Below are positions 9,749 through 31,676 of a stretch of 64,000 nt of DNA, piece by piece. The translations under genes and the position numbers were made by a program. Every line of letters starts with the position of its first letter. Position 1 is the first letter of the stretch. The notes beneath the pieces are model-generated. The model did no database searches, was not told the DNA's origin, and was given only the letters and a program-made list of their open reading frames with translations. This DNA is from Lama guanicoe (taxonomy: Eukaryota): NCBI GenBank assembly GCA_013239625.1, contig MU053594.1, positions 1,926,127 to 1,990,126 on the forward strand. Reading direction: 5' to 3'.

Positions 9749-10203
9749 TCAGGGCTCAACACTAGCTGCCTCCTCCTCTTCCTCTGGGTCAGGAGGTGCG
9801 GGGAGCAGGGAGATGTAGACCTCATTGACCTCTGTGTCCAAATGTCGGCCACCCCGAGGCGCCTCCAGGTTGAGGATGCCATCGTGGGAGAGAGCAGCGC
9901 GGACCCGCCAGGGGTCAACATCAGCAGGCAGGACGTAGGTGCGGCAGAACTCCCGGGACACGAAGCCGTGGCGGTCCAGGCGCTGGGGGTGCCGGGCAGA
10001 CACCTCCAGCAGGTTGTCCACAGTCCTCACGGTCACCTCATCTGGGGTAAAGTGGCTCACATCCAGGAATGCCTGGAACTTGCCCTCACTGAGCCGAAGC
10101 TCAGAGGCCCCTGCCCTGCTGCCCTCCCCAGCTTGGGTGGCCCGGGGTCGCACATAGTAGCCATGGTAGAGGGTGGGGGTCAGGATGTCTTCTGGCAGGA
10201 GGC
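9749..10203 (-). CDS. HSPB2: Heat shock protein beta-2 (MKBP), exon 2
   Basis: ccttcag|GC CTC CTG CCA; alpha-crystallin domain FLDVSHFTPDEV...SREFCRTYVLP; ends EEEEEAASVEP-TGA. Confidence 0.97.
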
Positions 10204-10669
10204 CTGAAGGGCAGAGAGAGAGAAGGCAAGAAGCAGGATGAGGGAGGATGAGGTGGGAAGGAGGGTGGGTGAATGAGTGGAGAGCAGGAGGTGAGACCTG
10301 GGGAGAGCCAGAGGGGAGTCAGGAGCAGGAGGGAAGAGGAGGGAGGAGTCCCGGCGGCTGGGAAGAGGGGACTGAGAAAGAACATGAGATGGGGTGGAGG
10401 AGAGCAAGCCAAACCGGGTCTGGGTGGTCCGAAGGGGACCCAGAAGGCACCCGGAGGGGGCAGGGGCGGGCATCAGCGCGCGGCGGGCGCCCTTCTGCGC
10501 CGGGGTCAGCGGGACGGGGAGAGAGGCCTGCCTGGGGCGGGGTGGGAGATGGCTCGCCCCAGGAGTTCAGTTAAGCCGGGAGTGGGGTGGAGGCCAGCAC
10601 CGTTGGGAGATCAGCCCAGAATTTCAGGAGGTGGGGGTGGGAGGCAAGGGGGTGGCGTCCGTGCCATAC

Positions 10670-10763
10670 CTTCTCCGAAGCGCTGCTCGCCCAGGCGGCT
10701 CGGGTTGGCGAACTCGTACTCGGCGGTGGCCGGGTGGGCATGTGGCACCGAGCGGCCCGACAT
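10670..10763 (-). CDS. HSPB2: HSPB2 exon 1
   Basis: MSGRSVPHAHPATAEYEFANPSRLGEQRFGE(G)|gtatgg; 94+455=549 nt, 182 aa. Confidence 0.97.
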
Positions 10764-12116
<1,353 letters not shown>

Positions 12117-13167
12117 TAAATCTGGCTCTAAGTGTCTCAAGTGTCATAGGCACTTGTATGTCTCACAATGAAACAAGATGAGGTCCCTAGTTCTGCTCTG
12201 CCTCAGTGCCAGTGCATCTGATATGCCTTTGTACCCTACTGATTACATTTTCCCCATGTGCTATGCATAGTACTCTGTGTTCCTTATCTCCTAAGTAGGA
12301 TGTCCTTTCTGGTTTGATTTATAAGGATCTACAGGGAAAAAGCTGCCTTCAGACACCTTCGCTCACTCTTCTGATATCTCACACTCCTGACAAATATTGT
12401 CATCTCAAACTTCAGAGCCAGGAGACAGTCCTACCTCATTCTGAGGTTTTTTTTATCCTCGCTGCTTGGAGCTGGACACAGCAACCACACTATTTTCTTC
12501 CTTTCTAGTCCCTCTTTTATGATTTTCCGAGTTTCTCAGGGCTGTGACAGGGCACTGGCCTGGGTTCAAGACTAATGAGGAAAGAATGTAGGTTTAGTCT
12601 TGGGGCCCACCCCCCAACGACTTGTCCTAAAAGGGTGGGAGAATGGGGTGAACAAATAAGGGTGACAGAAGCTGTCAGAGATAACACTCTGGTTTAAAAA
12701 TATTCAAGTGTGAGTAAACAGGAGCTGAGTGGGTGAGGGCTTTGGAAGGATAGTCAGAGCCAGCAGAACATTCCAGATTGAGTGGGTGGGAAACTTGGCA
12801 GAGACCTGAGCAAGAAGAAGGGACCTTTGTCTCACAGACAAACGACAAGGCCAGGCATTAGGTCAGAGCAGCAGCAGAAGCCATGTCCAGTCTCATCCTT
12901 GTGATCTGTCCCCTGGGTGGCCTGTCTTCTTCCCTGTCCCTGTAAATAAAGTTTGGGTCTGATGACCAAGTGTTGTACCTGGGGTACCACTGTGGTAGCT
13001 TTTCTGAACGAGAGAGCCATGTTTACTCACAAAGGGATTTTTAGCCAAAAAGAGAAGAATAAACTACCTGGACAGAAAGTAAGTTTGCAGAATAATGATA
13101 CTGTACTAGTGTAATCCACACTCCTACCATCCTTTCTCCTACCCTCTCCCCACCTTGCTATTTCTAG

Positions 13168-13704
<537 letters not shown>

Positions 13705-14194
13705 ATTTAGGAACAGTGGTTGTTAGACATTTGGTTGCTTTACATAGTTACATTAACTGTGTGGCCCCAGAAGGCCCTTGAACTGAGGACTTTTCTTTTA
13801 GATGTTCAGAATCCTACTTCTTTTTAGCCCATCTTAATGCTGAACTATGTGGTTTGCCTAAGTTTCAGAACTGTACTTAGCTCCTAATAATACCCTTGAC
13901 CCATGTGGAAATCAGTTAATTGAGAACCTGTCTGGATAAATGAGATTCAGCAGATACAAGGGTTAAGGTCAACTACTCTCTGGCAGAATTCTAAAGAATT
14001 GAATAGCTTCTCATTACTTTCTGGGAGTTTTTTTTTTTTTTAATGAGTTTGCTCCCTGCTGATTAGTGATAATTCAGAAACTTGTGCATCAAATAGTAAA
14101 GTTTGAGGTCCTCAGGCTGTTTCAGTTTTGTTCATATGATTTAACTTTAGTTCATAGTCTCCCTGAATGGAGTCTTTTTATTATTAGTCCCATT

Positions 14195-14224
14195 GTTCTG
14201 GAACATTCTGGAACATTCCTGAAG
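14195..14224. promoter_or_regulatory. Six-unit heat-shock element in CRYAB intron 2
   Basis: gTTCtgGAAcaTTCtgGAAcaTTCctGAAg, a perfect alternating nGAAn array. Confidence 0.75.
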
Positions 14225-14496
14225 AGTCAGGACAATTTCTGGGCTTCCTCAGGGACTCAAATCTTCAATGCCAGATGATATTCCATATCTTGTAGGCCCA
14301 ACAAATTATCTAAACCTTTGGGAAATACCTCTGAACACATCCATGCCTCAGGGCTTGGAAAGCTATGAAGTTTTGGCTGTTCAATCTTCTCAGACTCTCA
14401 TTGGCAGGAGAGACAGCCTAGGAAATTTCATGTTAGCCCCAAACAGAACAGCCACTTAGCTTTTCCTCATGTTGCCATGCATTTGGTCACACCTAA

Positions 14497-14784
<288 letters not shown>

Positions 14785-19482: not shown

Positions 19483-19549
19483 TATGGGCTGAAAGTGGCA
19501 TTTTGCTGTTGTAGCTTGTGTCATATGTAGTTTCAAAGTAGTGTCCAAA
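19483..19549 (-). CDS. CFAP68: CFAP68 exon 3
   Basis: ttccag|FGHYFETTYDTSYNSKMPLSAH A|gtaggt; 67 nt. Confidence 0.92.
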
Positions 19550-20128
19550 CTGGAAAGAAAAAGTAATAGGTTGAAAACACAGGAGTCTATAACCAATATT
19601 GGGAAATAAAGGGCACAATGACATGAATCCTAATAGGCTCTGTCACGTTTTAGATGGCTGAGAGGTCTATGTGTCGCCAGTCAATATCCTACTAACTTTC
19701 ATATCCTTTGTTTGTTTGTCTGTTTAGGAGATTTAAGGGCACGATGCAGATAAATGACAAGTCTAGATAGACAGAGACCAGAGGAAAAGCTAGCCTGAGT
19801 CAGAAGACATTTTATATATATATTTCTGTACATGAATGAGGTCCAAGAGAAGCAAGAGAAAAAGCCTGCTACCCATTTATTATTACCTTACAATAATAAA
19901 ATATTCAACTTGATAGTAAAGTGGGAGAGGGGTTCCAGCTGAGGACTGCTGCCCTCCCCTAACCACTTCACTGAAGAGAAGCCTGAGAGACCTCACATTG
20001 GAAGTTATCGGATTCCTGCCTCTCAAATGGCCACTGATATATATATATATATACACATATACATACATACATATTATATATATATATTTTACTAACAGAA
20101 GGAAACAAAGATGAGGAAGTTCAATTAC

Positions 20129-20359
20129 CTGGGAAGGCAAGGGTTTGGGCTGCACAATATTCCTCAGATCATATCTTTCCTGGTTCCAGTTGCCCATCAG
20201 GGTACGGTTTGAATAGGCATCCTCATTAGTGGTACATCTCCACCCATACTGGAAAAACTTGGACATATCATTCCAATCTGTCCACACTTCAGCATGGCCA
20301 TCTGCATTAATGAGGCTGCCACAGTGTGGGTTTGTAAGGAAGCAGGCGAGGAACTGCCT
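20129..20359 (-). CDS. CFAP68: CFAP68 exon 2
   Basis: ttcccag|RQFLACFLTNPHCGSL...QPKPLPSQ|gtaatt; 231 nt. Confidence 0.93.
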
Positions 20360-21559
20360 CTGGGAAAAGGTGAGAACAGAAAACATTGTGGCACAAATCA
20401 GAGAGCAGAAAAGGCACCCCTTACTCACCCTTAGCCAAGCAGAACATAAGTGCACCTTCTAAGGATCTAGGCTTTCCTCATAATTTAATTGTCGTGATTC
20501 TGTTTCTTTCTCTCCAAGTCCATGAATCCTTTGACCAACCTTTTCAATCAGCAGTAGCAGATGACTATATAGATTAAATGCTCCCCCCATCTCAAAAAGA
20601 GAGGAGAACTTCAGTACCCCCAATACTATATGGAGAACTAGATAAATATTCTGGTAATTTTGAGATGTAGGAGTTTAAGGACTAAGAGTATTGCTATAGT
20701 CAACAGGGAGAAGTGAGAGCTGGATAATTAGATAATACAATAAATGATCAATAAATGATAATTTCCTTCCTTCTGGGCCCAGCTCAAATGCCTCTTCTCA
20801 GGATGTGGTATTTCCTTTTCATGATGCCTTCCCTCAAGTTAACTTCTCTCTCACATGTCTCACACAGAACTTTATGTTCATATCTTTCTATATTTATAAC
20901 TTTATACCATATGTTAGAGTTCTTCAAATACGTGTCAAATCTCTTATGCTGAACCATGCAATCCTTGAGGACAGGATCTGTGTCTTATTTGTTACCACAT
21001 TCTCTCCTTCTGCTTCCCCTCCCAAACAATAGTACTTTGCACAGACAAGATGATCAATGTCTGAATTTCAGTTTTTTGTAAAGAATCAAAAGCCTAACAA
21101 TTTTTATTTTGGTCTAAAAGATGAGTCTGGTCCCTTGGCTTAGGAGCAAGACAATACCTTTCCTGAAGATGAGTTACTTGAAACTGAGGAGCTTGTGTTG
21201 TATGAAGATTTTGTAGTAGAGTGACAGAAGACCTTACTCTGTCGTTCCATGTTCTTTAATGGAAGAGATGTCACCAAACCTGGCCCTCCCAGTTCTCCAA
21301 GCAAAGAAAGAGTATAAATTATCCAGATCACCAGGTGGCCATGATTTGGGAGTCACCACCCACCCACCTTTCCACAGGTAGAGACAAAGCCAATACTGTA
21401 GGTTTAAAGGTAACTGCTCTCACACCATGTGCCTTTGTGAAGATACATACATGCACTGATGTCAACAAACAGCATGATGACTAAAGAGCAGCTGGTCCCA
21501 CAACGTTCAGCAAGCTGTACTCAGACTGCAGACCAAGATGACACTGTCCCTGGGCCTGT

Positions 21560-22350
21560 AAGGACAGATATCACTACCCACTCAGTTGTCCAAGTCTGAA
21601 ACCTGGGGCTTATCTTGACTCTGCTTTCTCTTTCAGTTGCTTACATCCATTCAATCTGTAGGTCTTGGTGAGTTTTGAATCAGTCCACTACCCTCCATCT
21701 CCACCGACAAGTTCCAATTCAGATCACTATTAGCCCCAGTCTCCAACCTGCAGTAGCCTCCTATTTGACCGCCTTGCCACCAGCCTTGTTCTTGTCTTAT
21801 CCTTTCTCCATAGGAAAGTAGAATTTTTGAAAATGAAAATCTGGTTGTGTCACCTTCCTATTTAAAATCTTTCAGTGCTGGCCAGGGTAAGATTCAGGCT
21901 GTTAAAATGGCTTACAATCCCTGTATGACTTGCTTAACTTCTCAGTCTCATTTGTTATCCACTCTTCCCTCAACTACATTCAGTCAGACTCACTATTCTG
22001 TTTCTCCATCATGCTTTTGCATATATTGTTCCTTCTGCCTCTTCACTCCGGTAATATGATCCCTCCCGCCGCCGCCCCCCCCAGCTTTCAACTCAGGTGC
22101 ACTTCATCCAGGAAAATTTTCCACTTCACCCCTAAACTTGGTAAGGTTCCCCTTCGGTGCACTCCCACAGCATCCTGAACTGCTCCACTCAGCGCTGCAT
22201 CACACCAAATCAGAATCGCCTCATTTGCTGTGTATCCTCCACCAGACTACACGCTCAGTGAAATCATAGGCCACATCTTGTTCCTCCAGATTAATCGCCG
22301 TCACATTGGCCTGGCACATAACACACACTCAGTATTTCTGGAATGAACAC
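21560..22350 (+). mobile_element. L2 LINE fragment in CFAP68 intron 1
   Basis: L2-like segments ending ctggcacata...gaatgaa; boundaries approximate. Confidence 0.65.
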
Positions 22351-22370
22351 AAGGTAGGAGACAGGAGCAC

Positions 22371-22409
22371 CTGCAGAAGCTCCGAATAGAGACAATGGGT
22401 GGCAGCCAT
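22371..22409 (-). CDS. CFAP68: CFAP68 exon 1
   Basis: MAATHCLYSELLQ|gtgctc (weak donor), similar to the human N-terminus as I recall it (MAASQCL...); total CDS 513 nt, 170 aa. Confidence 0.7.
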
Positions 22410-22845: not shown

Positions 22846-23017
22846 ATGGCCCCTCGGCGCCTCCTGTTGGTCGGGGAGGGGAACTTCTCCTTCGCCGCCG
22901 CTCTGAGCGAGACCCTGGATCCCAGCACCAGGTTAACCGCCACCTGCCTCCAGCGGCCGGCCGACCTTGCCGGGTCTCGGCTAGTCCAGGAGAACCTGCA
23001 GCGCCTGCGCGAGCGAG
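22846..23017 (+). CDS. FDXACB1: FDXACB1 exon 1
   Basis: MAPRRLLLVGEGNFSFAAAL (BMT5/DUF2431-type SAM motif)...RER G|gtagca; 172 nt. Confidence 0.95.
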
Positions 23018-23268
23018 GTAGCAAGGCCCACCCCCCTGCGAGGGCCCACCCCCCGCGAGGCCCCGCCCCGCTGCCGGCGCCGCCCTAAGTGGGAGGGTGG
23101 GCACGTGCGGAATCTGGGAACGTAGGGATTGCTCTTTATCTTCCCACGGACATCTACAGACAACCCGCTGTGTGCCTAGACCGGGGTTGTTTTGCACGAT
23201 TCAGGTTGGGGAGGGGCTTTCTCACGTTCTAGATCTTACGACAGCCTTTTGTCTCTATTTGGTGTCAG

Positions 23269-23425
23269 GGACTGAGGTACGTTTTGGTGTGGACTGCACC
23301 CAGCTGGCAGATGCTTTTGAACTGCACGACAGAGAATTTGATCGAATTTATTTTAACTTTCCGCACTGTGGACGCAAAGCTGGAGTAGCTAAGAACAGGG
23401 AACTGCTTGCCAAGTTTTTCCAGAG
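23269..23425 (+). CDS. FDXACB1: FDXACB1 exon 2
   Basis: gtcag|GG ACT...RIYFNFPHCG...FFQ AG|gtgagg; 157 nt. Confidence 0.95.
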
Positions 23426-24364
23426 GTGAGGAAGGGCGAGCATTCACAAGCAAAATGTTTAAGATGTACATTACATGGTTACTGCCCTCAAACATGTTAG
23501 TTTGGGAAATAGGGCATACGTGTGTAAGTTGTAATGATCGATTTAGAGAGAATGTAAAGCTCCAAAGGAACCTGCAATCTAACTGGAAAGGAAGACATTT
23601 AACCCTGAATGCTAAATAAAAGTACAAATAATGTACTCTTGGGCCCGCAAAGGGAGGATCTCCTATTTGTGATAATACAAAGTAATGGTAGCCAGTATAG
23701 TCTAATGGCTAAGAGCATGGTTTTAGGAGACAAACTGGATTCAATTCCCCACTCACCACTTGATAGTTTTGTGATTTTTGTGATTACATATACTTAATCT
23801 TTAACTGCTTTTGCTTCCTCATCCATAAACTGAAGATATTAGCAGTAACTACCTCATAAAATTATTGTGAACTTAAAAGTGCTTTACACTATTATACCAA
23901 AACATGTGATATTATTGGAGGTCTCTTTGGCTCATAGTTGTCAGGGAACTTTTCACAGAGGCAATATTTTAAGTTAGTATTTGAAGTATGGATAGAATTT
24001 TACTGGGCAGGAGGGGAGTGAAAAGAACAACTTTCTAAATGTGGAAGGACAGCTCAGTCACTGAATCACATGTAGGAACTTTACAGACATTGACTTTTCA
24101 ATGACATATGGATGAACAAGGCAAATACAAAGCTGGGTAACACTCTGGTCAGTCACTAGTAATCAGTTATGAGTTGAACACTGAATTTAAATTCTTTTTT
24201 ACTTCCAGCTGCTTTCTTTGCATGTTTAAAGTCTAATAGACCTTTGCAAATCGGTATGATTGGACTTAAATTATTTCACAGCCAAACCGTGTATATAGTG
24301 CTAACTCCCGTGGTAATTTCTGTTTGTTTCTGATAAGTGGTCGGTGTTCCCCTCTCCCCATTAG

Positions 24365-24568
24365 CTGTGCAGATGTTCTTGCAGAGGAAGGAGAAATCCA
24401 CGTGGCACTGTGTAGAGGACAAGGTGGGACTCCTGCTGATAAGCCCATGAGAGAATGGCACAACAGTTGGCAAGTGGTTGCCATGGCAGCTCTGGGGGGA
24501 TTCATCTTAAGTGATGTGCATCCCTTCAGCTGTGAGGCTGTGTCAGGGTACAAGTGCACTGGATATAG
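24365..24568 (+). CDS. FDXACB1: FDXACB1 exon 3
   Basis: cattag|C TGT...GYKCTGY AG|gtaaat; 204 nt. Confidence 0.95.
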
Positions 24569-24849
24569 GTAAATAATAACAGAGACATAAGCCTTTTTCA
24601 TCTTTCATGTAATCTAATATTCATGAAATCTAAGGCACATGGAATGCATCCAATTTTAACATTTTTGAGAAAAGTCCTGCTCATTTGCACTTTTCTATAG
24701 AATCTGCAATTTGTTGCCCAACATGTACAGCTAGATTTTAATTAAAAATATACTTTTTAATATGTAACCATGTTTTGCTATGTCTCATTACTCAGCCTTA
24801 TTTTATGAAGTATTTGTTTTTAATGCTTTATTATTATGATTATTATGAT

Positions 24850-25155
24850 TATTTTTTACAGTAGGACCTTGTTATCTGCTCTGGGCATAGTAGTTTGTAT
24901 CAGCCAATCCCAAATTCCCAATTTATCCCTCTCTCCCCCCTTTTCCCCCTGTAACTATAAGTTTGTTTCCTATGTCTATGAATCTCTTTCTGTTTTGTAA
25001 ATATGTTCATTTGTATCATTTTTTTCAATGCCACATATAAGTGCTATAATATGATATTTGTCTTTGACTTACTTAGTATGATAATCTCTAGGTCCATCCA
25101 TGTTGCTCAAATGACATTATTTCATTCCTTTTTATGGCTGAGTAGTGTTCCATTT
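24850..25155 (-). mobile_element. L1 3' fragment in FDXACB1 intron 3
   Basis: cagtaggaccttgtt...tctctaggtccatccatgttgc: antisense L1 3' UTR. Confidence 0.75.
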
Positions 25156-25314
25156 TGATAAACGATAAATGATTTAAAAAAACCTCATAGACAAATTTTT
25201 TTCCTTGCCAGTTTCTTTTAAAAAAAAATTTGGCCAATTTCCTGAGTCAGTCTCTAGAAATGCTTGCTTTTTAAAAATAATGACAGATTTCATAATTGGT
25301 GTCTATTTCACCAG

Positions 25315-25473
25315 GAGTCAAGATAAGTCCTTTTATGTAGACGGTGCTTTGAACCATGTCTTCACCCGGAGCTTACCCTTTGAAGGTTTGCAACCAAGAA
25401 TCTCCAGGATCAAACTGGGTGGCCAGTGGTTTTCTTTTCTAGAACCAGAAGTACTTGTAGGAAAACTGAACAG
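25315..25473 (+). CDS. FDXACB1: FDXACB1 exon 4
   Basis: caccag|G AGT CAA...KLN AG|gtaacc; 159 nt. Confidence 0.95.
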
Positions 25474-25843
25474 GTAACCTGATTTTACCAGAAGTCACTT
25501 CTATCTCTAGCTGTATCCTGATTGGCTTGATAATCAGGCAACCATATTATATATTGAATGCATGCTACATGAATTATTAATGATCTTGTGCTGTGAATAC
25601 TTGTCAGTCTGGCCTTCACAAGCCTCTTTAGAATGAAAAATTGTCATGTTTTTTGGAATATTGTAGGCTATCAGAATCCTGAAACACATGATATCTGTTT
25701 TTATGGTAGGTGATTTCTCTGTTTCCTTTATGGATCAACTTAAGGATAATTCTTTTCTACACAGCTATTTGTGCTTTTGATTTTAGCTACATTATATTTA
25801 TAATTTGAAGTTAAGAAAGTCATTTTTGTGTGTGTTTAAACAG

Positions 25844-27023
25844 GGGTTTCCTAGAAGCATCTTCATGTCATCCTGTCAAAACCATAAATGAGAAACTCAT
25901 TGGTGAATTGGGGAAAGCTTTCCCTCTAAAACGGCTCAAGTGTTCCTCCCCTTTGCTGCTACAGGGAGGCACCAGTGTTCTTACTTCCTGCAACTATGAC
26001 ATCCTATCAGCTGCCTTTTGGATTAGTCTCTGTGAAGATAACTCAAATGCTGAGTCCCTGACTGGTGGCACAACACAAGACATGGAGGACTTTCTAGTGT
26101 CATTTTCAGAACTTAGCCTTCCCAAGAGCCTTACAGACAGTAGGGAAGAAGCTCACAATGGAATCTCTGGCCAAGCCAAGGTCTGCCTTAGACCTTCTCT
26201 TCTAGTTCACGTTCAGACTGTAATCCAAGCACCAGACTTCCTCCCAGGCTCTGTGCACGTCCTTAGTGGACCTGTCTTTCGGAAGTGCTGCATCTCGCCC
26301 TTCACAATGCCAGCATTTCATGAGACTTTATTTATCCTTGGGTTTAATAAAAATCCGAAGGATGGCTGTCTTCGGTCACTACTGGACCACTTGAAGTGCA
26401 TTCTAGATAGCCTTCTGACCCAGACGTTGCTGGAGGGCTCTCAGCTGAGCAGTTCAGTAGAATTCGTCTTTCAACCAAATAGGAAAGATTATGTGATTAA
26501 TGTGAAGTTTCATAGTTTTGGCCCAGATTGTGTCAAGGATCTGACTGTTGGGTCTGTCACTACATCTGCTACAAGCGCTATACACAAAGACCAGTGTTTT
26601 GTGTGTGTGTCTGTGAACTTGGACCTGTTGGCCATGCTTGTCTGGGGTATCTCTGATTGGAGGATGTTATGGACCTTTGATACCCGTTTCCTGAAGAATT
26701 TTGTCCCTGGGAAAATAGAACCCTTTAAAAGCTATTCCCTACATCCTCCACACTATGTACACGATATTAGTTTTTGGATAGATGAAAAGAAAAGATTTGA
26801 TGAAGTAGAGTTTCACACTGTGGCCCGAGCAGTGTCCCAGGACACTGTCATATCCATACGATTCCTTAGCCGTTTTCAGCATCCAAAGACTGAACAGGTC
26901 AGCCTCTGCTATCGATTGACTTACCAGACGTGTGACAAGGCCCTCACCCAGCAGCAGGTAGCCTCAATGCAGTCCCGGCTTAGGAAGGAGATTCAACGAT
27001 GGCTACATTTGACACCTCGGTAG
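25844..27023 (+). CDS. FDXACB1: FDXACB1 exon 5 (PheRS-like region and ferredoxin-fold anticodon-binding domain)
   Basis: aaacag|G GGT TTC; YVHDISFW...SLCYRLTYQTCDKALT...TPR-TAG; total 1872 nt, 623 aa. Confidence 0.96.
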
Positions 27024-28331
27024 TTTAGCAAATTCACCTCTACAGAGTAATCCTCGTGAGTGTGGGTATGGATGAAAAAGACCAATTTGTAACCGGTGGT
27101 CCTTTCAGGACAGTTTTGGTTTTTTGTTTTTTTTTTTTGGTAAGATCTTTTGCTTTGTGACTATAGCTACTGTTGGTCGACTAAAGATACCTGTGACTCC
27201 ATCACTTAAACTTATAGATTATAATGCAGTTGGTGACCTTTGGAGTTGTGCAATATTTTGATCCCAAATAATGACTACAAAAAAACCCAAAATGGTATCT
27301 TATACACGAGATACTCTAATGCTGAAGAGATAGTACATCTTGAATGTCTCATCAAATATATTTATAAATATATTTTCCACATTGTCAGTTTCTCTTCCCT
27401 CAACTCTATCATGTCATTTCACTAAATCAATTGAGAGTGGTTTTTAGAGTCAGACAGACCAGCATTGATTAGCTTGGGTAAGTTGCAAGTGCCCCATATT
27501 ATTACTGATATCATTATCAACATCATGTTTATTCCATGGTTGACTGCTGTTCAAGTCGTGGAATTAATAAGTGTCAGATTCAGAGTTCATCCTTAGGTCT
27601 GTCTGACTCTAAAGCCCATTTTTTTTTCTGCCACTTTCTATTACCTTACTTCTTCCTTAGTTTTCTTCAACAGTAATCTCTCAACTGTGAGTAACTCTAA
27701 ACTTTGCCCCCCTAGATTTTGGGGCTTTCTGTTGTAAGCATCTCTACGGGATACTGGGAGATTGGCTTAATCCAGGACATTGAAGAATGGGGTGCTCTAA
27801 GGTGAATGAATAAATGTTCGTGTTAATTAAGAGTTAGGCTCCACCAATTGTAAACTCTATGAAGGAAGTAACTGACTTATTTATTCTTACATTTGGAGAA
27901 GAGCATGTGGAAAGGCAAAATGGAAGCAAAGAAACAAAGTAGGAAGTTACTATAATAATGCAAACAAGAGATAATGGCGACCTGGACCATTATCTGGTGA
28001 ATCTATAACAGAGGCTGACCTGTTCAGTCTTTGGAGTAGGTAATAATTAAGAGGATTTGCTGATCAATTAAACATATGTGCATTCTGAATGGTGTGGAGC
28101 TAGAGAGAGAAGAATCAAGAAGAATCCCAAGGTTTTTGACCCAAGCAACTGGGAGAATAGAAGTGTCTTTAACTGGAATAGGAAAACTGGTATAAGAGTT
28201 AGTTTGTGGAATGAAGAACAAGGGATTTCTTATGGACACCTTTATTACTTAGCTCTCCACATAGACTCTAACTCACTGAGGGCAGGTAATGTGATTTAAG
28301 CCTTCTTCCACCCCCAATAGTGCCTGGTACA

Positions 28332-28970
28332 TATGGAACTGAGCAGGACCCAGTGAGGGCTTCCTGGGGATAGACTCCCACCGCCCATGTCCCCCACCTG
28401 TTGTTTGTGGAAAAGCTCTAGCCTCCTAGGCCTTCCCTGAGTTCCAAAGAGAAAATTTAATCTGAGAAGTGAGAAAATGCAGAGACAAAGGAAAACAGTC
28501 AAACAAAACAAAATAATAATAGTTTAACCATAGAACAAAATCAAGGACCTTTAGTTGCCCCTCAAGGGCTATAGATAATATTCTGAGCCATATCCTTGAG
28601 TTGTTTTATAGATACTAAACCCCCCACCAGGTAGAAGAAGTCTACTGCGTGCTGACCACCAGCACGTGTAGACCCCAGATCGGTTGGAACCAGATGGTAG
28701 ATGGTGCTGACTCCCAAAATATCACCCATTTACCTCACCACCAACCAGTCAGAAGGATGTCTATGAGCTGACCATGCATCCCTCAACCCTTTCCTCTACC
28801 TTGCCTTTAAAAAGGCTTCCCTGAAAGACTTTGGGGAGTTCAGGTCTTCTGAGCATAGAGCTGTCTGTTCTCCTTACAATAAACGCTGTACTTTCCTTCA
28901 CCACAACCTGGTGTCAGTAGATTGGCTTTGCTGGGCACAGATGAGCAGACCCAAGTTTGGTTTGGCAACA
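28332..28970 (+). mobile_element. Solo ERV LTR between FDXACB1 and ALG9
   Basis: ggaactgagcaggaccc start, TATA-like tttaaaaa, AATAAA 28878-28883, ...tttggcaaca end; TSD not found, left boundary approximate. Confidence 0.75.
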
Positions 28971-29046
28971 CTTGGATGGTGTCAGTAGATTGGCTTTGCT
29001 GGGCACAGATGAGCAGACCCAAGTTTGGTTTGGCAACACTTGGATG
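28909..29046. repeat. Perfect 68-bp tandem duplication over the LTR 3' end and flank
   Basis: TGGTGTCAGTAGATTGG...GGCAACACTTGGA occurs twice, period 68. Confidence 0.95.
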
Positions 29047-30279
29047 AGGTAGCACTTGAGCTGGATCTTAAAACAAGGGCTGGGATGTGATGGGAAGATT
29101 GTTGACAAGGAGGGCACACATGAGCAGAGGTATAGATAAGGGAGCATTTGGGGTACTTTACAGGCTAGTTAGTTGAAATGTGAAATGTATATAGCAAAGT
29201 GGTGGGAGATGAGATTAGAAAAGTAGGTTGGGGCCGTACTTAGTTCATAAAAGCCTGAATGCTAGAATAAGAAGTATTATTTTGCAGGCAATAGGGAAAA
29301 TCTGGTGATTTTTGATTAAGGAGATGACACAGTAATGTTTTTGAAAATTAATTGGACAGTGTTGCCCAGAATCCATTTGAGATGGGAGATCCCTGTACGG
29401 ATGCAACTGTAGTGGTCCTGGGTAGAGTCAGGGAGGGGCCTGCAGTAGACTGAAATGAAAAGGAGATGGATGTATGAGATACAGCTAGGCTGGGATGTCT
29501 GAACTTGGTCACTAGTAATTTCCTATGGGAATTGAGCAAATTGATCAATCTGCATTTTCAATACTTGGGAATTTTTAGTAGGAAATCATAACCTAGGACC
29601 CTGTCAAGGTTGGTGCTCCTTCTATAACCTTGTTTTAGTTAGTGTTACAGAGCTCCCTAGGGTGGGATAGAGTTCTGTGATTGAGGGAGTAGGTAGAGTG
29701 TCAGAAACAGATGAACGACCCCTGGGAGTCACAGGCTTGTAATCTGATACAGTTGCCTGTATAAAAATGCCTGTATGAAATCAGGAGCTTTCTCCTGATC
29801 TCGTGGTTGGTAAAGCATGGGCTTTGTAGTAAGACCTGGGTTGGAATATGGCTTCTCCACTTTCTAGCCATTCAACCTTGGGCCTCAGTTTCCTTCCCGA
29901 TAAAACAAGGTTGTTGTAAGAATTAAATTTTAAAAGGATAAAATACATAAAATGCTTACCATAATACTATAGTAGGAATGGCAGTGACTGGTGCCTGGTT
30001 GAATTTGCCGTGCAGAATTTGATGTTCAAGCTCAAGTTTCTTCTTCTCATTTGTATTCTGCCATTATGGCTTTGTCTCTCTGAAGCAGGCTGTCCCTGTC
30101 ACTCACCAAAATACAGAGGACAAGGTGTCAGTGACCTTTAAAGAACTTCCTCTTTGTGCTCTCTTTTAAACCGGGGAGTTGAAGGAGGGTTTTGGTGGGA
30201 AAGTGGAGAACGCTGAGAAGTGAAGGAAGAGAGAGTTGGAGGGAGGGAGGGATGCCCAGAGTTACAAGTGTGTGGAAGG

Positions 30280-31070
30280 GGTGGCTATGACGGTAAAAAC
30301 CAAGTCTCCGGTCGCATTTCTTTTCTACACGGAAACGGGAGTTTGCTGCAATCGGCCCGGGAAAACTATCGTTTGGGTTTTTTTCTGCGCATGTCGAGGT
30401 CTTTTGTCCCTCGGCGGACGCCGTTTGCCAGCCTAGGCTATGTCTCCGCGCTCGTCGCCTCCGTAGGGTGCCGGGTTCTACCTTGCTTCCCAGGCTCGCC
30501 ATGGCGAGCCGAGGGGCCCGGCAGCGCCTGAAGGGCAGCGGGGGCAGCGGCGGGGACCCGGCCTCGGCCGCGGACAAGCTGCGGGAGCTGCTGTGCGGCC
30601 GAGAGGCGGGCGGCGCGGAGCCCCGGCCCGAGTAGGTGTGCGGGCGCGGCGGGGGCGTGGCCGGGCGGCGGGGGGCTGCGCCCGGAGGGTCTCGCCCGCC
30701 GGGTGCGGGGCTGCGCCGCGCCCGGCCTCCCGGCCGGCCTGCCTGGAGGGCCCGTAGTCTCTTCACCCTGGTCGCTCTGCTCTTCCTGGGCGGGTGGGCG
30801 TTCGGTCTTTGCCCGCCTTAGATTCGATTCCCCCGGCTCGGGTCCCGTGTCGCTGGTGAAGCAAGCCTGGAGTGCGGGTCTGTGAGGCTTCCGGCCCAGG
30901 CCTAGGGTGAGCTGGCGTCGTGGCTTTGGAGTTGGCAGAGCCGCCGTGGGAGACGTTGGCAAGAGCAAAGAGTGTGCCTCTCCGGCTGTCTCACAGCTTC
31001 CTTCATCCCCCACCAAAGTCCCGACCCTTTACCCCTTCAGTGTGGGCCCCCGAACCTCCCGCACTAGCCG
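30280..31070. promoter_or_regulatory. ALG9: ALG9 CpG island and promoter
   Basis: CpG-dense, GC-rich region around exon 1; NRF1-like TGCGCATG at 30386. Confidence 0.8.
30501..30631 (+). CDS. ALG9: Alpha-1,2-mannosyltransferase ALG9, exon 1
   Basis: gccATGG; MASRGARQRLKGSGG...EPRP GA|gtaggt; 131 nt. Confidence 0.95.
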
Positions 31071-31537: not shown

Positions 31538-31676
31538 GTTATCTGGGAACAAAGCAGGACAAGTCTGGGCACCTGAAGGTTCTACTGCTTTCAAGTGTCT
31601 GCTCTCAGCAAGGTTATGTGCTGCTCTCCTGAGCAACATCTCTGACTGTGATGAAACATTCAACTACTGGGAACCA
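31538..31676 (+). CDS. ALG9: ALG9 exon 2
   Basis: gagcag|G TTA...NISDCDETFNYWEP|gtgggt; 139 nt. Confidence 0.96.

What the first reader, a model, noticed from the sequence alone, without database searches (positions are those of the whole stretch)
22846..30631. In-frame FDXACB1-ALG9 fusion: a methyltransferase-like domain on an ER mannosyltransferase
Seen: a good acceptor (gttctaccttgcttcccag|, AG at 30492-30493) lies 7 nt before the ALG9 ATG. FDXACB1 exons 1-4 total 692 nt; 692+7=699 nt, or 233 codons, so the splice 25473>30494 reads ...KLN-R-L-A-MASRG in frame with full-length ALG9. The splice 25473>31538 (ALG9 exon 2, also phase 2) is in frame too. Known: FDXACB1 exons 1-4 carry the BMT5/DUF2431-like SAM-binding domain, and ALG9 is a GT22 ER membrane enzyme. 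From memory, a human read-through model of about 844 aa exists, equal to 233+611; this needs verifying. Inference: a conserved frame would point to a real alternative product that tethers a putative RNA methyltransferase domain to the ER in place of its anticodon-binding domain.
Basis: partly seen in the sequence, partly recalled or inferred. Interest (0 to 1): 0.75.

Follow-up and report, generated by a model that had tools for sequence, protein, structure and literature searches.

The report
Read-through splice joining FDXACB1 and ALG9
Two neighbouring genes in a camelid genome can in principle be spliced into one in-frame message, but the join is already in vertebrate gene annotations, its position varies between species, and it looks like ordinary transcription run-on rather than a selected hybrid enzyme.

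Summary
The arithmetic is right. FDXACB1 exons 1-4 total 692 nt (phase 2). The AG 7 nt before the ALG9 ATG is the best-scoring of 284 AGs in the interval, and splicing to it or to ALG9 exon 2 keeps the frame. It is not new: the same junction is a gorilla RefSeq model (862 aa), and fused models exist in 34 vertebrate genera. The junctions fall into seven classes. The commonest, exon 4 to ALG9 exon 2 (15 genera), is the textbook read-through pattern, and three of four FDXACB1 introns share phase 2 with ALG9 intron 1, so the frame needs no selection. No read-level or peptide evidence was obtained for this animal. Best reading: low-level read-through splicing between genes 3.5 kb apart (0.68). A translated, selected amniote isoform is not excluded (0.1).

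The parts
22846..23017 (+). FDXACB1 coding exon 1 (172 nt, ends phase 1); start of the BMT5-like domain with the glycine-rich SAM-binding motif
23269..23425 (+). FDXACB1 exon 2 (157 nt, ends phase 2); NFPH motif
24365..24568 (+). FDXACB1 exon 3 (204 nt, ends phase 2); end of the Pfam BMT5-like match
25315..25473 (+). FDXACB1 exon 4, the second-to-last (159 nt, ends phase 2); its first ~17 codons are still conserved methyltransferase domain, the rest is a variable linker; donor of the proposed fusion
25844..27023 (+). FDXACB1 last coding exon: degenerate mitochondrial-PheRS-like region plus FDX-ACB; skipped in the fusion; holds phase-0 cryptic donors at 26897 and 26957 that match junctions of some annotated fusions
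27716..27801 (+). 86-nt cryptic exon (AG..GT, open frame) used by two merged camel-cluster models
27809..27814 (+). first AATAAA after the FDXACB1 stop, 786 nt downstream; candidate poly(A) signal, use not shown
30200..31000 (.). CpG island over the ALG9 start (G+C 0.51-0.82, CpG o/e 0.76-0.98): ALG9's own promoter region (inferred)
30465..30466 (+). second in-frame, stop-free AG, 34 nt before the ALG9 ATG (6.0 bits, rank 10 of 284)
30501..30631 (+). ALG9 coding exon 1 (131 nt, ends phase 2)
31538..31676 (+). ALG9 exon 2 (acceptor 13.2 bits); start of the GT22 domain; the acceptor used by most annotated fusions

Best explanation
This is ordinary cis-splicing between adjacent genes. RNA polymerase II sometimes runs past the FDXACB1 3' end into ALG9, 3.5 kb downstream on the same strand (inferred). 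The spliceosome then joins an FDXACB1 donor to the next strong acceptor: usually ALG9 exon 2, or, in lineages that happen to have one, an AG just before the ALG9 ATG. The frame survives because FDXACB1 introns 2, 3 and 4 and ALG9 intron 1 are all phase 2 (shown), and intron phase is inherited regardless of any fusion. A little fused protein may be made and would probably insert as a working ALG9 with a cytosolic passenger domain (inferred), but nothing indicates selection for it. The camelid -7 AG is a lineage-specific chance acceptor.
For: Distance 3,477 nt from stop to ATG, same strand, second-to-last exon joined to second exon: these match the rules in PMC4450057 (passages), where 4 of 20 random such gene pairs gave a product. 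PMC2953495 (passages) found this intron pattern in 42% of conjoined mRNAs and both frames kept in 48 of 297. Fused models in 34 named genera use seven junction classes: e4>exon 2 in 15 genera; e3>exon 2 in 4; e2>exon 2 in 1 (half the domain, Pfam 1-113 of 168); e1>upstream in 1; e4>-7 AG in 3; e4>other nearby AG in 2; donors inside exon 5 in 10 named genera. The -7 AG is excluded in 11 of 18 mammal records. Neighbour fusions of the same kind occur elsewhere: ALG9 joined to HEAT repeats of the PPP2R1 type in rabbit and Scotinomys, and BMT5-like joined to an Obg GTPase in 2 representatives. Only 2 of the top 150 BMT5-like representatives carry ALG9, both vertebrate models. FDXACB1's last acceptor (7.8) is weaker than both ALG9 acceptors (11.1, 13.2), and no AATAAA lies within 785 nt of the stop.
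Against: No junction reads were obtained for this animal or its relatives, so read-through itself is inferred from other species' annotation. One junction, e4>exon 2, recurs from monotremes to birds, turtles and squamates and is the one that keeps the whole methyltransferase domain (conserved F184, H192, F194 lie in exon 4). The two genes have stayed adjacent since teleosts (fused models in Poecilia, Gambusia, Albula). The -7 site outranks all 283 other AGs in the interval, and AG-compatible states appear in camelid, a bat and gorilla. Protein databases hold only in-frame products, so out-of-frame junctions could not be counted.
Confidence: 0.68

Rival explanations
1. Annotation artefact. The fused models come mostly from gene-prediction merges and from projecting one human model onto other genomes. 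In this camelid the splice is only possible on paper.
For: The two 844-aa macaque models are 'hypothetical protein' GenBank entries. The pig-tailed macaque junction (phase-0 donor in exon 5 straight onto Leu-Ala-Met) needs an AG at -6, which conflicts with a -7 acceptor in its sister species (inference). The camel-cluster fusions are merges through a cryptic exon and use neither exon-4 junction. 0 of 94 short proteins, many from assembled sequencing runs, held both halves. No retrocopy exists in this genome. No hit in four fusion catalogues' supplements that held text, and no fusion entry in a pig read-through survey.
Against: Many fusions are RefSeq 'isoform X' models listed beside or in place of the normal ALG9 (gorilla, Tupaia, Peromyscus, Ictidomys, Taeniopygia, Hemicordylus). 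That pipeline normally needs transcript support for alternative introns (recalled, not checked here). The varied junctions are hard to explain by projection from one template. Contig-derived ORFs drop rare variants, so the 0 of 94 is weak.
Confidence: 0.15
2. An ancient selected isoform. FDXACB1 residues 1-231 joined to ALG9 (mostly from exon 2) is translated in amniotes and holds a SAM-dependent RNA methyltransferase on the cytosolic face of the ER, where it could act on membrane-bound ribosomes or tRNA.
For: The same e4>exon 2 junction is annotated in 15 genera spanning amniotes. It keeps the whole methyltransferase domain and the whole GT22 domain. ALG9's N terminus is cytosolic, and the human enzyme was expressed with an N-terminal FLAG-eYFP tag (PMC13503287). 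Adjacency is old.
Against: The junction is the default read-through pattern and its frame is fixed by intron phase. Six other junction classes exist, some cutting the domain. No fusion appears outside vertebrates among 150 representatives. The fusion discards the tRNA-recognition half that 81 of 98 long representatives keep. Yeast Bmt5 works in the nucleolus on pre-60S particles (PMC3950682). No paper on the fusion was found.
Confidence: 0.1
3. Regulatory read-through. What matters is the transcription, not the protein: run-on from the FDXACB1 promoter crosses the ALG9 CpG island, damps ALG9's own promoter or lowers full-length FDXACB1, and the in-frame splice merely avoids nonsense-mediated decay.
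For: The ALG9 start sits in a CpG island 3.2 kb past the FDXACB1 stop. PMC2953495 proposes such regulation for conjoined genes. Varied junctions would be tolerated under this model.
Against: No expression data were obtained. Nothing here distinguishes it from noise.
Confidence: 0.07

Closest known systems
Annotated FDXACB1-ALG9 fused models: gorilla RefSeq XP_055211477.2 (862 aa), macaque EHH23416.1 (844 aa), galago H0X7G0 (807 aa); Bos, Tupaia, echidna, zebra finch, turtle and lizard models of about 800 aa
   Different: No camelid model with either exon-4 junction was seen. The camel-cluster fusions use an exon-5 donor and a cryptic exon.
Human ENSG00000258529
   Same: Listed with ALG9 at chr11:111,842,219 (PMC12746921) and called a provisionally annotated mannosyltransferase of unknown function (PMC10057398).
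   Different: That it is the FDXACB1-ALG9 read-through gene is recalled, not shown by any search; its sequence was not seen.
cis-SAGe / conjoined genes (PMC4450057; PMC2953495)
   Same: Same strand, under 30 kb, second-to-last exon to second exon, canonical sites.
   Different: Transcription and junction use were not shown in this animal.
Yeast Bmt5 (PF10354), m3U2634 methyltransferase of 25S rRNA (PMC3950682)
   Same: FDXACB1 residues 7-175 match PF10354 at 155 bits. The N-terminal part of the model matches SAM-dependent methyltransferases such as TrmB.
   Different: No activity or substrate was found in print for FDXACB1. The single m3U of human 28S rRNA is made by SPOUT1 (PMC11641110). FDXACB1 adds a PheRS-like half.
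Human mitochondrial PheRS (FARS2; 3tup, 3cmq, 8p8x)
   Same: FDXACB1 487-621 matches at E 9e-26, and the fold match covers about 300 columns.
   Different: The catalytic region is degenerate in FDXACB1; this whole half is lost in the fusion.

Membership tests
cis-SAGe read-through chimera | Parent genes adjacent on the same strand, under 30 kb apart | tested here: met
   3,477 nt from stop to ATG; rule from PMC4450057
cis-SAGe read-through chimera | Second-to-last exon joined to second exon at canonical sites | tested here: met
   25473>31538 is GT-AG and in frame; annotated in 15 genera. The -7 junction is a minority variant.
cis-SAGe read-through chimera | 5' gene actively transcribed | tested here: inconclusive
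cis-SAGe read-through chimera | Junction shown in RNA of this organism | not tested
   one search gave no result, so no reads were examined
cis-SAGe read-through chimera | No DNA rearrangement; both genes intact and single-copy | tested here: met
   intact 623-aa FDXACB1; one match each, all 18 protein matches on one contig
Conserved functional fusion isoform | Acceptor and frame conserved across mammals (-7 AG) | tested here: not met
   6 compatible, 11 excluded, 1 unclear of 18 records, read from the residue three codons before the ALG9 Met
Conserved functional fusion isoform | One fixed junction across species | tested here: inconclusive
   seven classes; the commonest is in 15 of 34 genera but is also the default pattern
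Conserved functional fusion isoform | Obligate single-gene fusion in some lineage | tested here: not met
   2 of 150 representatives carry ALG9, both vertebrate models; top 150 of 2607 hits only
Conserved functional fusion isoform | Translation evidence (peptides, ribosome footprints) | not testable with these tools
   no proteomics or Ribo-seq tool; nothing in print found
BMT5-like methyltransferase (PF10354) | Pfam score above the curated cut-off, with SAM-binding motif | tested here: met
   exons 1-3 each pass; 151-158 bits in fused models
BMT5-like methyltransferase (PF10354) | m3U methylation of rRNA | not testable with these tools
   shown only for yeast Bmt5 (PMC3950682)
GT22 mannosyltransferase ALG9 (PF03901) | Whole GT22 domain retained in the fusion | tested here: met
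   profile 2-414 of 414 in the gorilla and bovine fusions

The most novel reading that the evidence does not exclude
An amniote-wide, translated FDXACB1(1-231)-ALG9 isoform, made mainly by the exon 4 to exon 2 splice, that swaps FDXACB1's tRNA-recognising half for an ER anchor and so places an orphan SAM-dependent RNA methyltransferase on the cytosolic face of the ER, next to membrane-bound ribosomes and the N-glycan precursor pathway.
Probability: 0.1. Interest if true: 0.65.

Novelty: already known. Interest (0 to 1): 0.2.

Why it matters
As it most likely stands, it matters little. It is one more read-through pair, already modelled in RefSeq and Ensembl-derived sets. It has a practical side: ALG9 is often annotated with a spurious methyltransferase N terminus, and in human data a separate overlapping gene id may split ALG9 read counts (inference). 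If the fused protein were made in quantity and selected, it would be a rare conserved read-through protein, would tie an orphan RNA methyltransferase to the ER, and would bear on the reading of ALG9 exon-1 variants, since the exon-2 junction bypasses exon 1.

Tried and rejected
Read evidence: 24 runs were listed, but laying reads gave no result, so junction use, the ALG9 start site and the FDXACB1 3' end remain open. The word shares are not used as evidence of the fusion. Genomic DNA of other mammals: two metagenome scans found nothing, so conservation of the AG was read indirectly from protein models extended upstream of the ALG9 Met. The rat record P0107 was left out of that count because its junction is ambiguous, and ground squirrel because it uses a downstream AG. 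Structure: the fused-protein model is uninformative (pLDDT 39.7, pTM 0.27, 15 sequences) and was not used. The FDXACB1 model is weak (pLDDT 53) and was used only for family-level matches. No complex prediction was run, as no binding is claimed. Junction-spanning short proteins: 0 of 94, weak evidence. Retrocopy of a spliced fusion: none. First exon-2 boundary was off by one and was corrected. Literature: FDXACB1+ALG9 gave 2 unrelated papers (listing only); fusion names and recalled ids gave 3 papers, none naming the fusion (passages of two read); some searches were listings. Supplements: no hit in PMC13429570, PMC7969022, PMC8226361, PMC5053695 (the last held only 1,816 characters); PMC7038929 held only 344 characters; PMC2953495's were unreadable; these gaps may hide a listing. 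Earlier scan notes: nothing relevant.
Full report
Setting. The window is from a camelid: FDXACB1 exon 3 is 99% identical to a Camelus dromedarius protein, in a 2.05-Gb assembly. It holds FDXACB1 (22846-27023, +) and the first part of ALG9 (from 30501, +; further exons mapped). Both genes are single-copy and intact.

Observation. Four exons total 692 nt, and the five-exon gene gives 623 aa. The AG at 30492-30493 lies 7 nt before the ALG9 ATG. Splices 25473>30494 and 25473>31538 both keep the ALG9 frame. In a small weight matrix built from 16 acceptors of this window, the site scores 11.1 bits, first of 284 AGs in the interval and above FDXACB1's own last acceptor (7.8). Sites this strong occur at about 0.56 per kb in the ALG9 gene body, true sites included (18 of 2187 AGs). 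Of 11 AGs in the 250 nt before the ATG, 6 are in frame and 4 are stop-free. So a good in-frame acceptor is there, and it is moderately unusual but was picked after the fact.

The fusion is already annotated. Searches with exon 3 (best 120 of 449 listed) and with the junction region of a macaque model (best 120 of 315), plus cluster look-ups, returned models with both PF10354 and PF03901 in 34 named vertebrate genera. This is not a frequency, since only top hits and part of each cluster were seen. A human model was not seen. ENSG00000258529, an id I recalled, is listed with ALG9 in PMC12746921 (passage) and called a provisional mannosyltransferase in PMC10057398 (passages).

The junctions vary. 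By genus: exon 4 to ALG9 exon 2 in 15 (Bos, Capra, Tupaia, Molossus, Peromyscus, Rattus, Tachyglossus, Ornithorhynchus, Eudromia, Taeniopygia, Pangshura, Macrochelys, Vipera, Liasis, Hemicordylus); exon 3 to exon 2 in 4 (Canis, Dasypus, Trachemys, Emys); exon 2 to exon 2 in Felis; exon 1 to an upstream site in Panthera; exon 4 to the -7 AG in 3; exon 4 to another nearby AG in Ictidomys and Heterocephalus; donors inside exon 5 in 10 (Microcebus, Mandrillus, Macaca, Rattus, Manacus, Poecilia, Gambusia, Camelus, Ophiophagus, Albula), several of them plain gene merges. Macaca and Rattus fall in two classes. The cat form keeps only Pfam positions 1-113 of 168. The exon-3 forms keep the Pfam match but lose F184, H192 and F194, which are 91-98% conserved among 93 diverse homologues. 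No camelid model uses either exon-4 junction.

The -7 acceptor is not conserved. An AG at -9/-8 requires Arg or Ser three codons before the ALG9 Met. Reading that residue from models extended upstream or from junctions: compatible in the window, gorilla, galago, two macaques and a bat (6). Excluded in orangutan (Lys), humpback whale, lion, tiger, a mouse-identical record and two unnamed records (Thr), naked mole-rat (Ala), an unnamed divergent record (Val), raccoon dog (read in another frame) and pig-tailed macaque (11). Unclear in tenrec (Ser). The pig-tailed macaque call is an inference: its model joins a phase-0 exon-5 donor (26897 here) directly to Leu-Ala-Met, which needs an AG at -6, as the orangutan Lys codon would give. 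That casts doubt on the two 844-aa macaque models. One-base length differences in the same UTR also shift the -34 AG out of frame in two unnamed records. The test is indirect, because no genomic DNA of other mammals could be fetched.

Why the frame is kept. FDXACB1 introns are phase 1, 2, 2, 2 and ALG9 intron 1 is phase 2. Any of three donors gives an in-frame join to exon 2. Intron phase is nearly fixed in vertebrate orthologues (established knowledge), so recurrence of the frame is not evidence of selection on a fusion. The geometry is the textbook one. PMC4450057 (passages) gives the rules: same strand, under 30 kb, active 5' gene, second-to-last exon to second exon; 4 of 20 random pairs yielded a product, and 5 of 11 coding fusions were in frame. 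PMC2953495 (passages) reports this intron pattern in 42% of conjoined mRNAs. Local features fit: a weaker last acceptor and no AATAAA until 786 nt past the stop. As controls, ALG9 is also modelled fused to PPP2R1-type HEAT repeats in two other mammals, and BMT5-like domains to an Obg GTPase in two unnamed representatives.

What the protein would be. Residues 7-175 are BMT5-like. Yeast Bmt5 is a nucleolar Rossmann-fold m3U methyltransferase of 25S rRNA (PMC3950682, passages). The one m3U of human 28S rRNA is written by SPOUT1 (PMC11641110, passages), so FDXACB1's substrate is open. Its second half resembles mitochondrial PheRS by sequence (E 9e-26) and fold, and 81 of 98 long representatives keep a match to that half, against 2 with ALG9. 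The fusion drops all of it. [quoted passage not shown] The GT22 domain is whole in fused models. So a fused protein would probably insert and work as ALG9 with a cytosolic passenger (inference). The predicted structure of the fusion was too poor to use.

Evidence against my reading. One junction recurs across amniotes and is the one that preserves both domains. The genes have been neighbours since teleosts. Many fusions are RefSeq isoforms, which usually rest on RNA introns (recalled). Databases hide out-of-frame junctions. And I have no reads: one search gave no result, so read-through in this animal is inferred, not shown. On the other side, 0 of 94 short proteins spanned a junction, and no retrocopy exists.

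In print. No paper on the fusion was found in searches (listings). PMC13189227 names FDXACB1 only in a primer table. Supplements of PMC13429570, PMC7969022, PMC8226361 and PMC5053695 had no hit. PMC12831279's 12 searched files name the two genes only in gene lists (file 13 is on microproteins). PMC7038929's held almost no text and PMC2953495's could not be read; either could list the pair.

Verdict. The feature is a known kind of event, and this pair is already in annotation. Incidental read-through 0.68, artefact only 0.15, selected isoform 0.10, regulatory run-on 0.07. Interest 0.2.

Noticed in passing
window 22846-27023: FDXACB1 itself is the more open question: a BMT5-like methyltransferase joined to a degenerate mitochondrial-PheRS-like half, kept in 81 of 98 long representatives. 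Human 28S m3U is made by SPOUT1, so a tRNA substrate, perhaps tRNA-Phe, is a testable guess (inference). No functional paper appeared among 27 listed.
   Followed up: partly
window 27716-27801: 86-nt cryptic exon with AG/GT ends and an open frame, used by two merged camel-cluster models between an exon-5 donor (26957) and ALG9 exon 2; its donor lies 8 nt before the first AATAAA.
   Followed up: partly
window 28290-29046: A stretch that reads like a solitary retroviral LTR (recalled resemblance, not tested), with an AATAAA at 28878 and an exact 68-bp tandem duplication at 28909-29046, lies between the two genes.
   Followed up: no
window 9749-14781: Two small heat-shock genes head to head (HSPB2-like on -, CRYAB-like on +). 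The name HSPB2 is recalled.
   Followed up: no
window 19500-22400 (- strand): Exons of a gene running opposite to FDXACB1 and sharing its CpG island; by synteny C11orf1/CFAP68 (recalled).
   Followed up: no
proteins P0140, P0245: Rabbit and Scotinomys models join ALG9 to PPP2R1-type HEAT repeats, probably the next gene downstream (neighbour identity recalled).
   Followed up: partly
proteins P0435, P0492: Two unnamed representatives join a BMT5-like domain to an Obg-family GTPase: either neighbour merges or a real pairing of two large-subunit assembly functions.
   Followed up: no
proteins P0229, P0235, P0254, P0269: Some fused isoforms in ground squirrel, mouse lemur and tree shrew start at an internal Met in FDXACB1 exon 3, so they lack most of the methyltransferase domain.
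   Followed up: no
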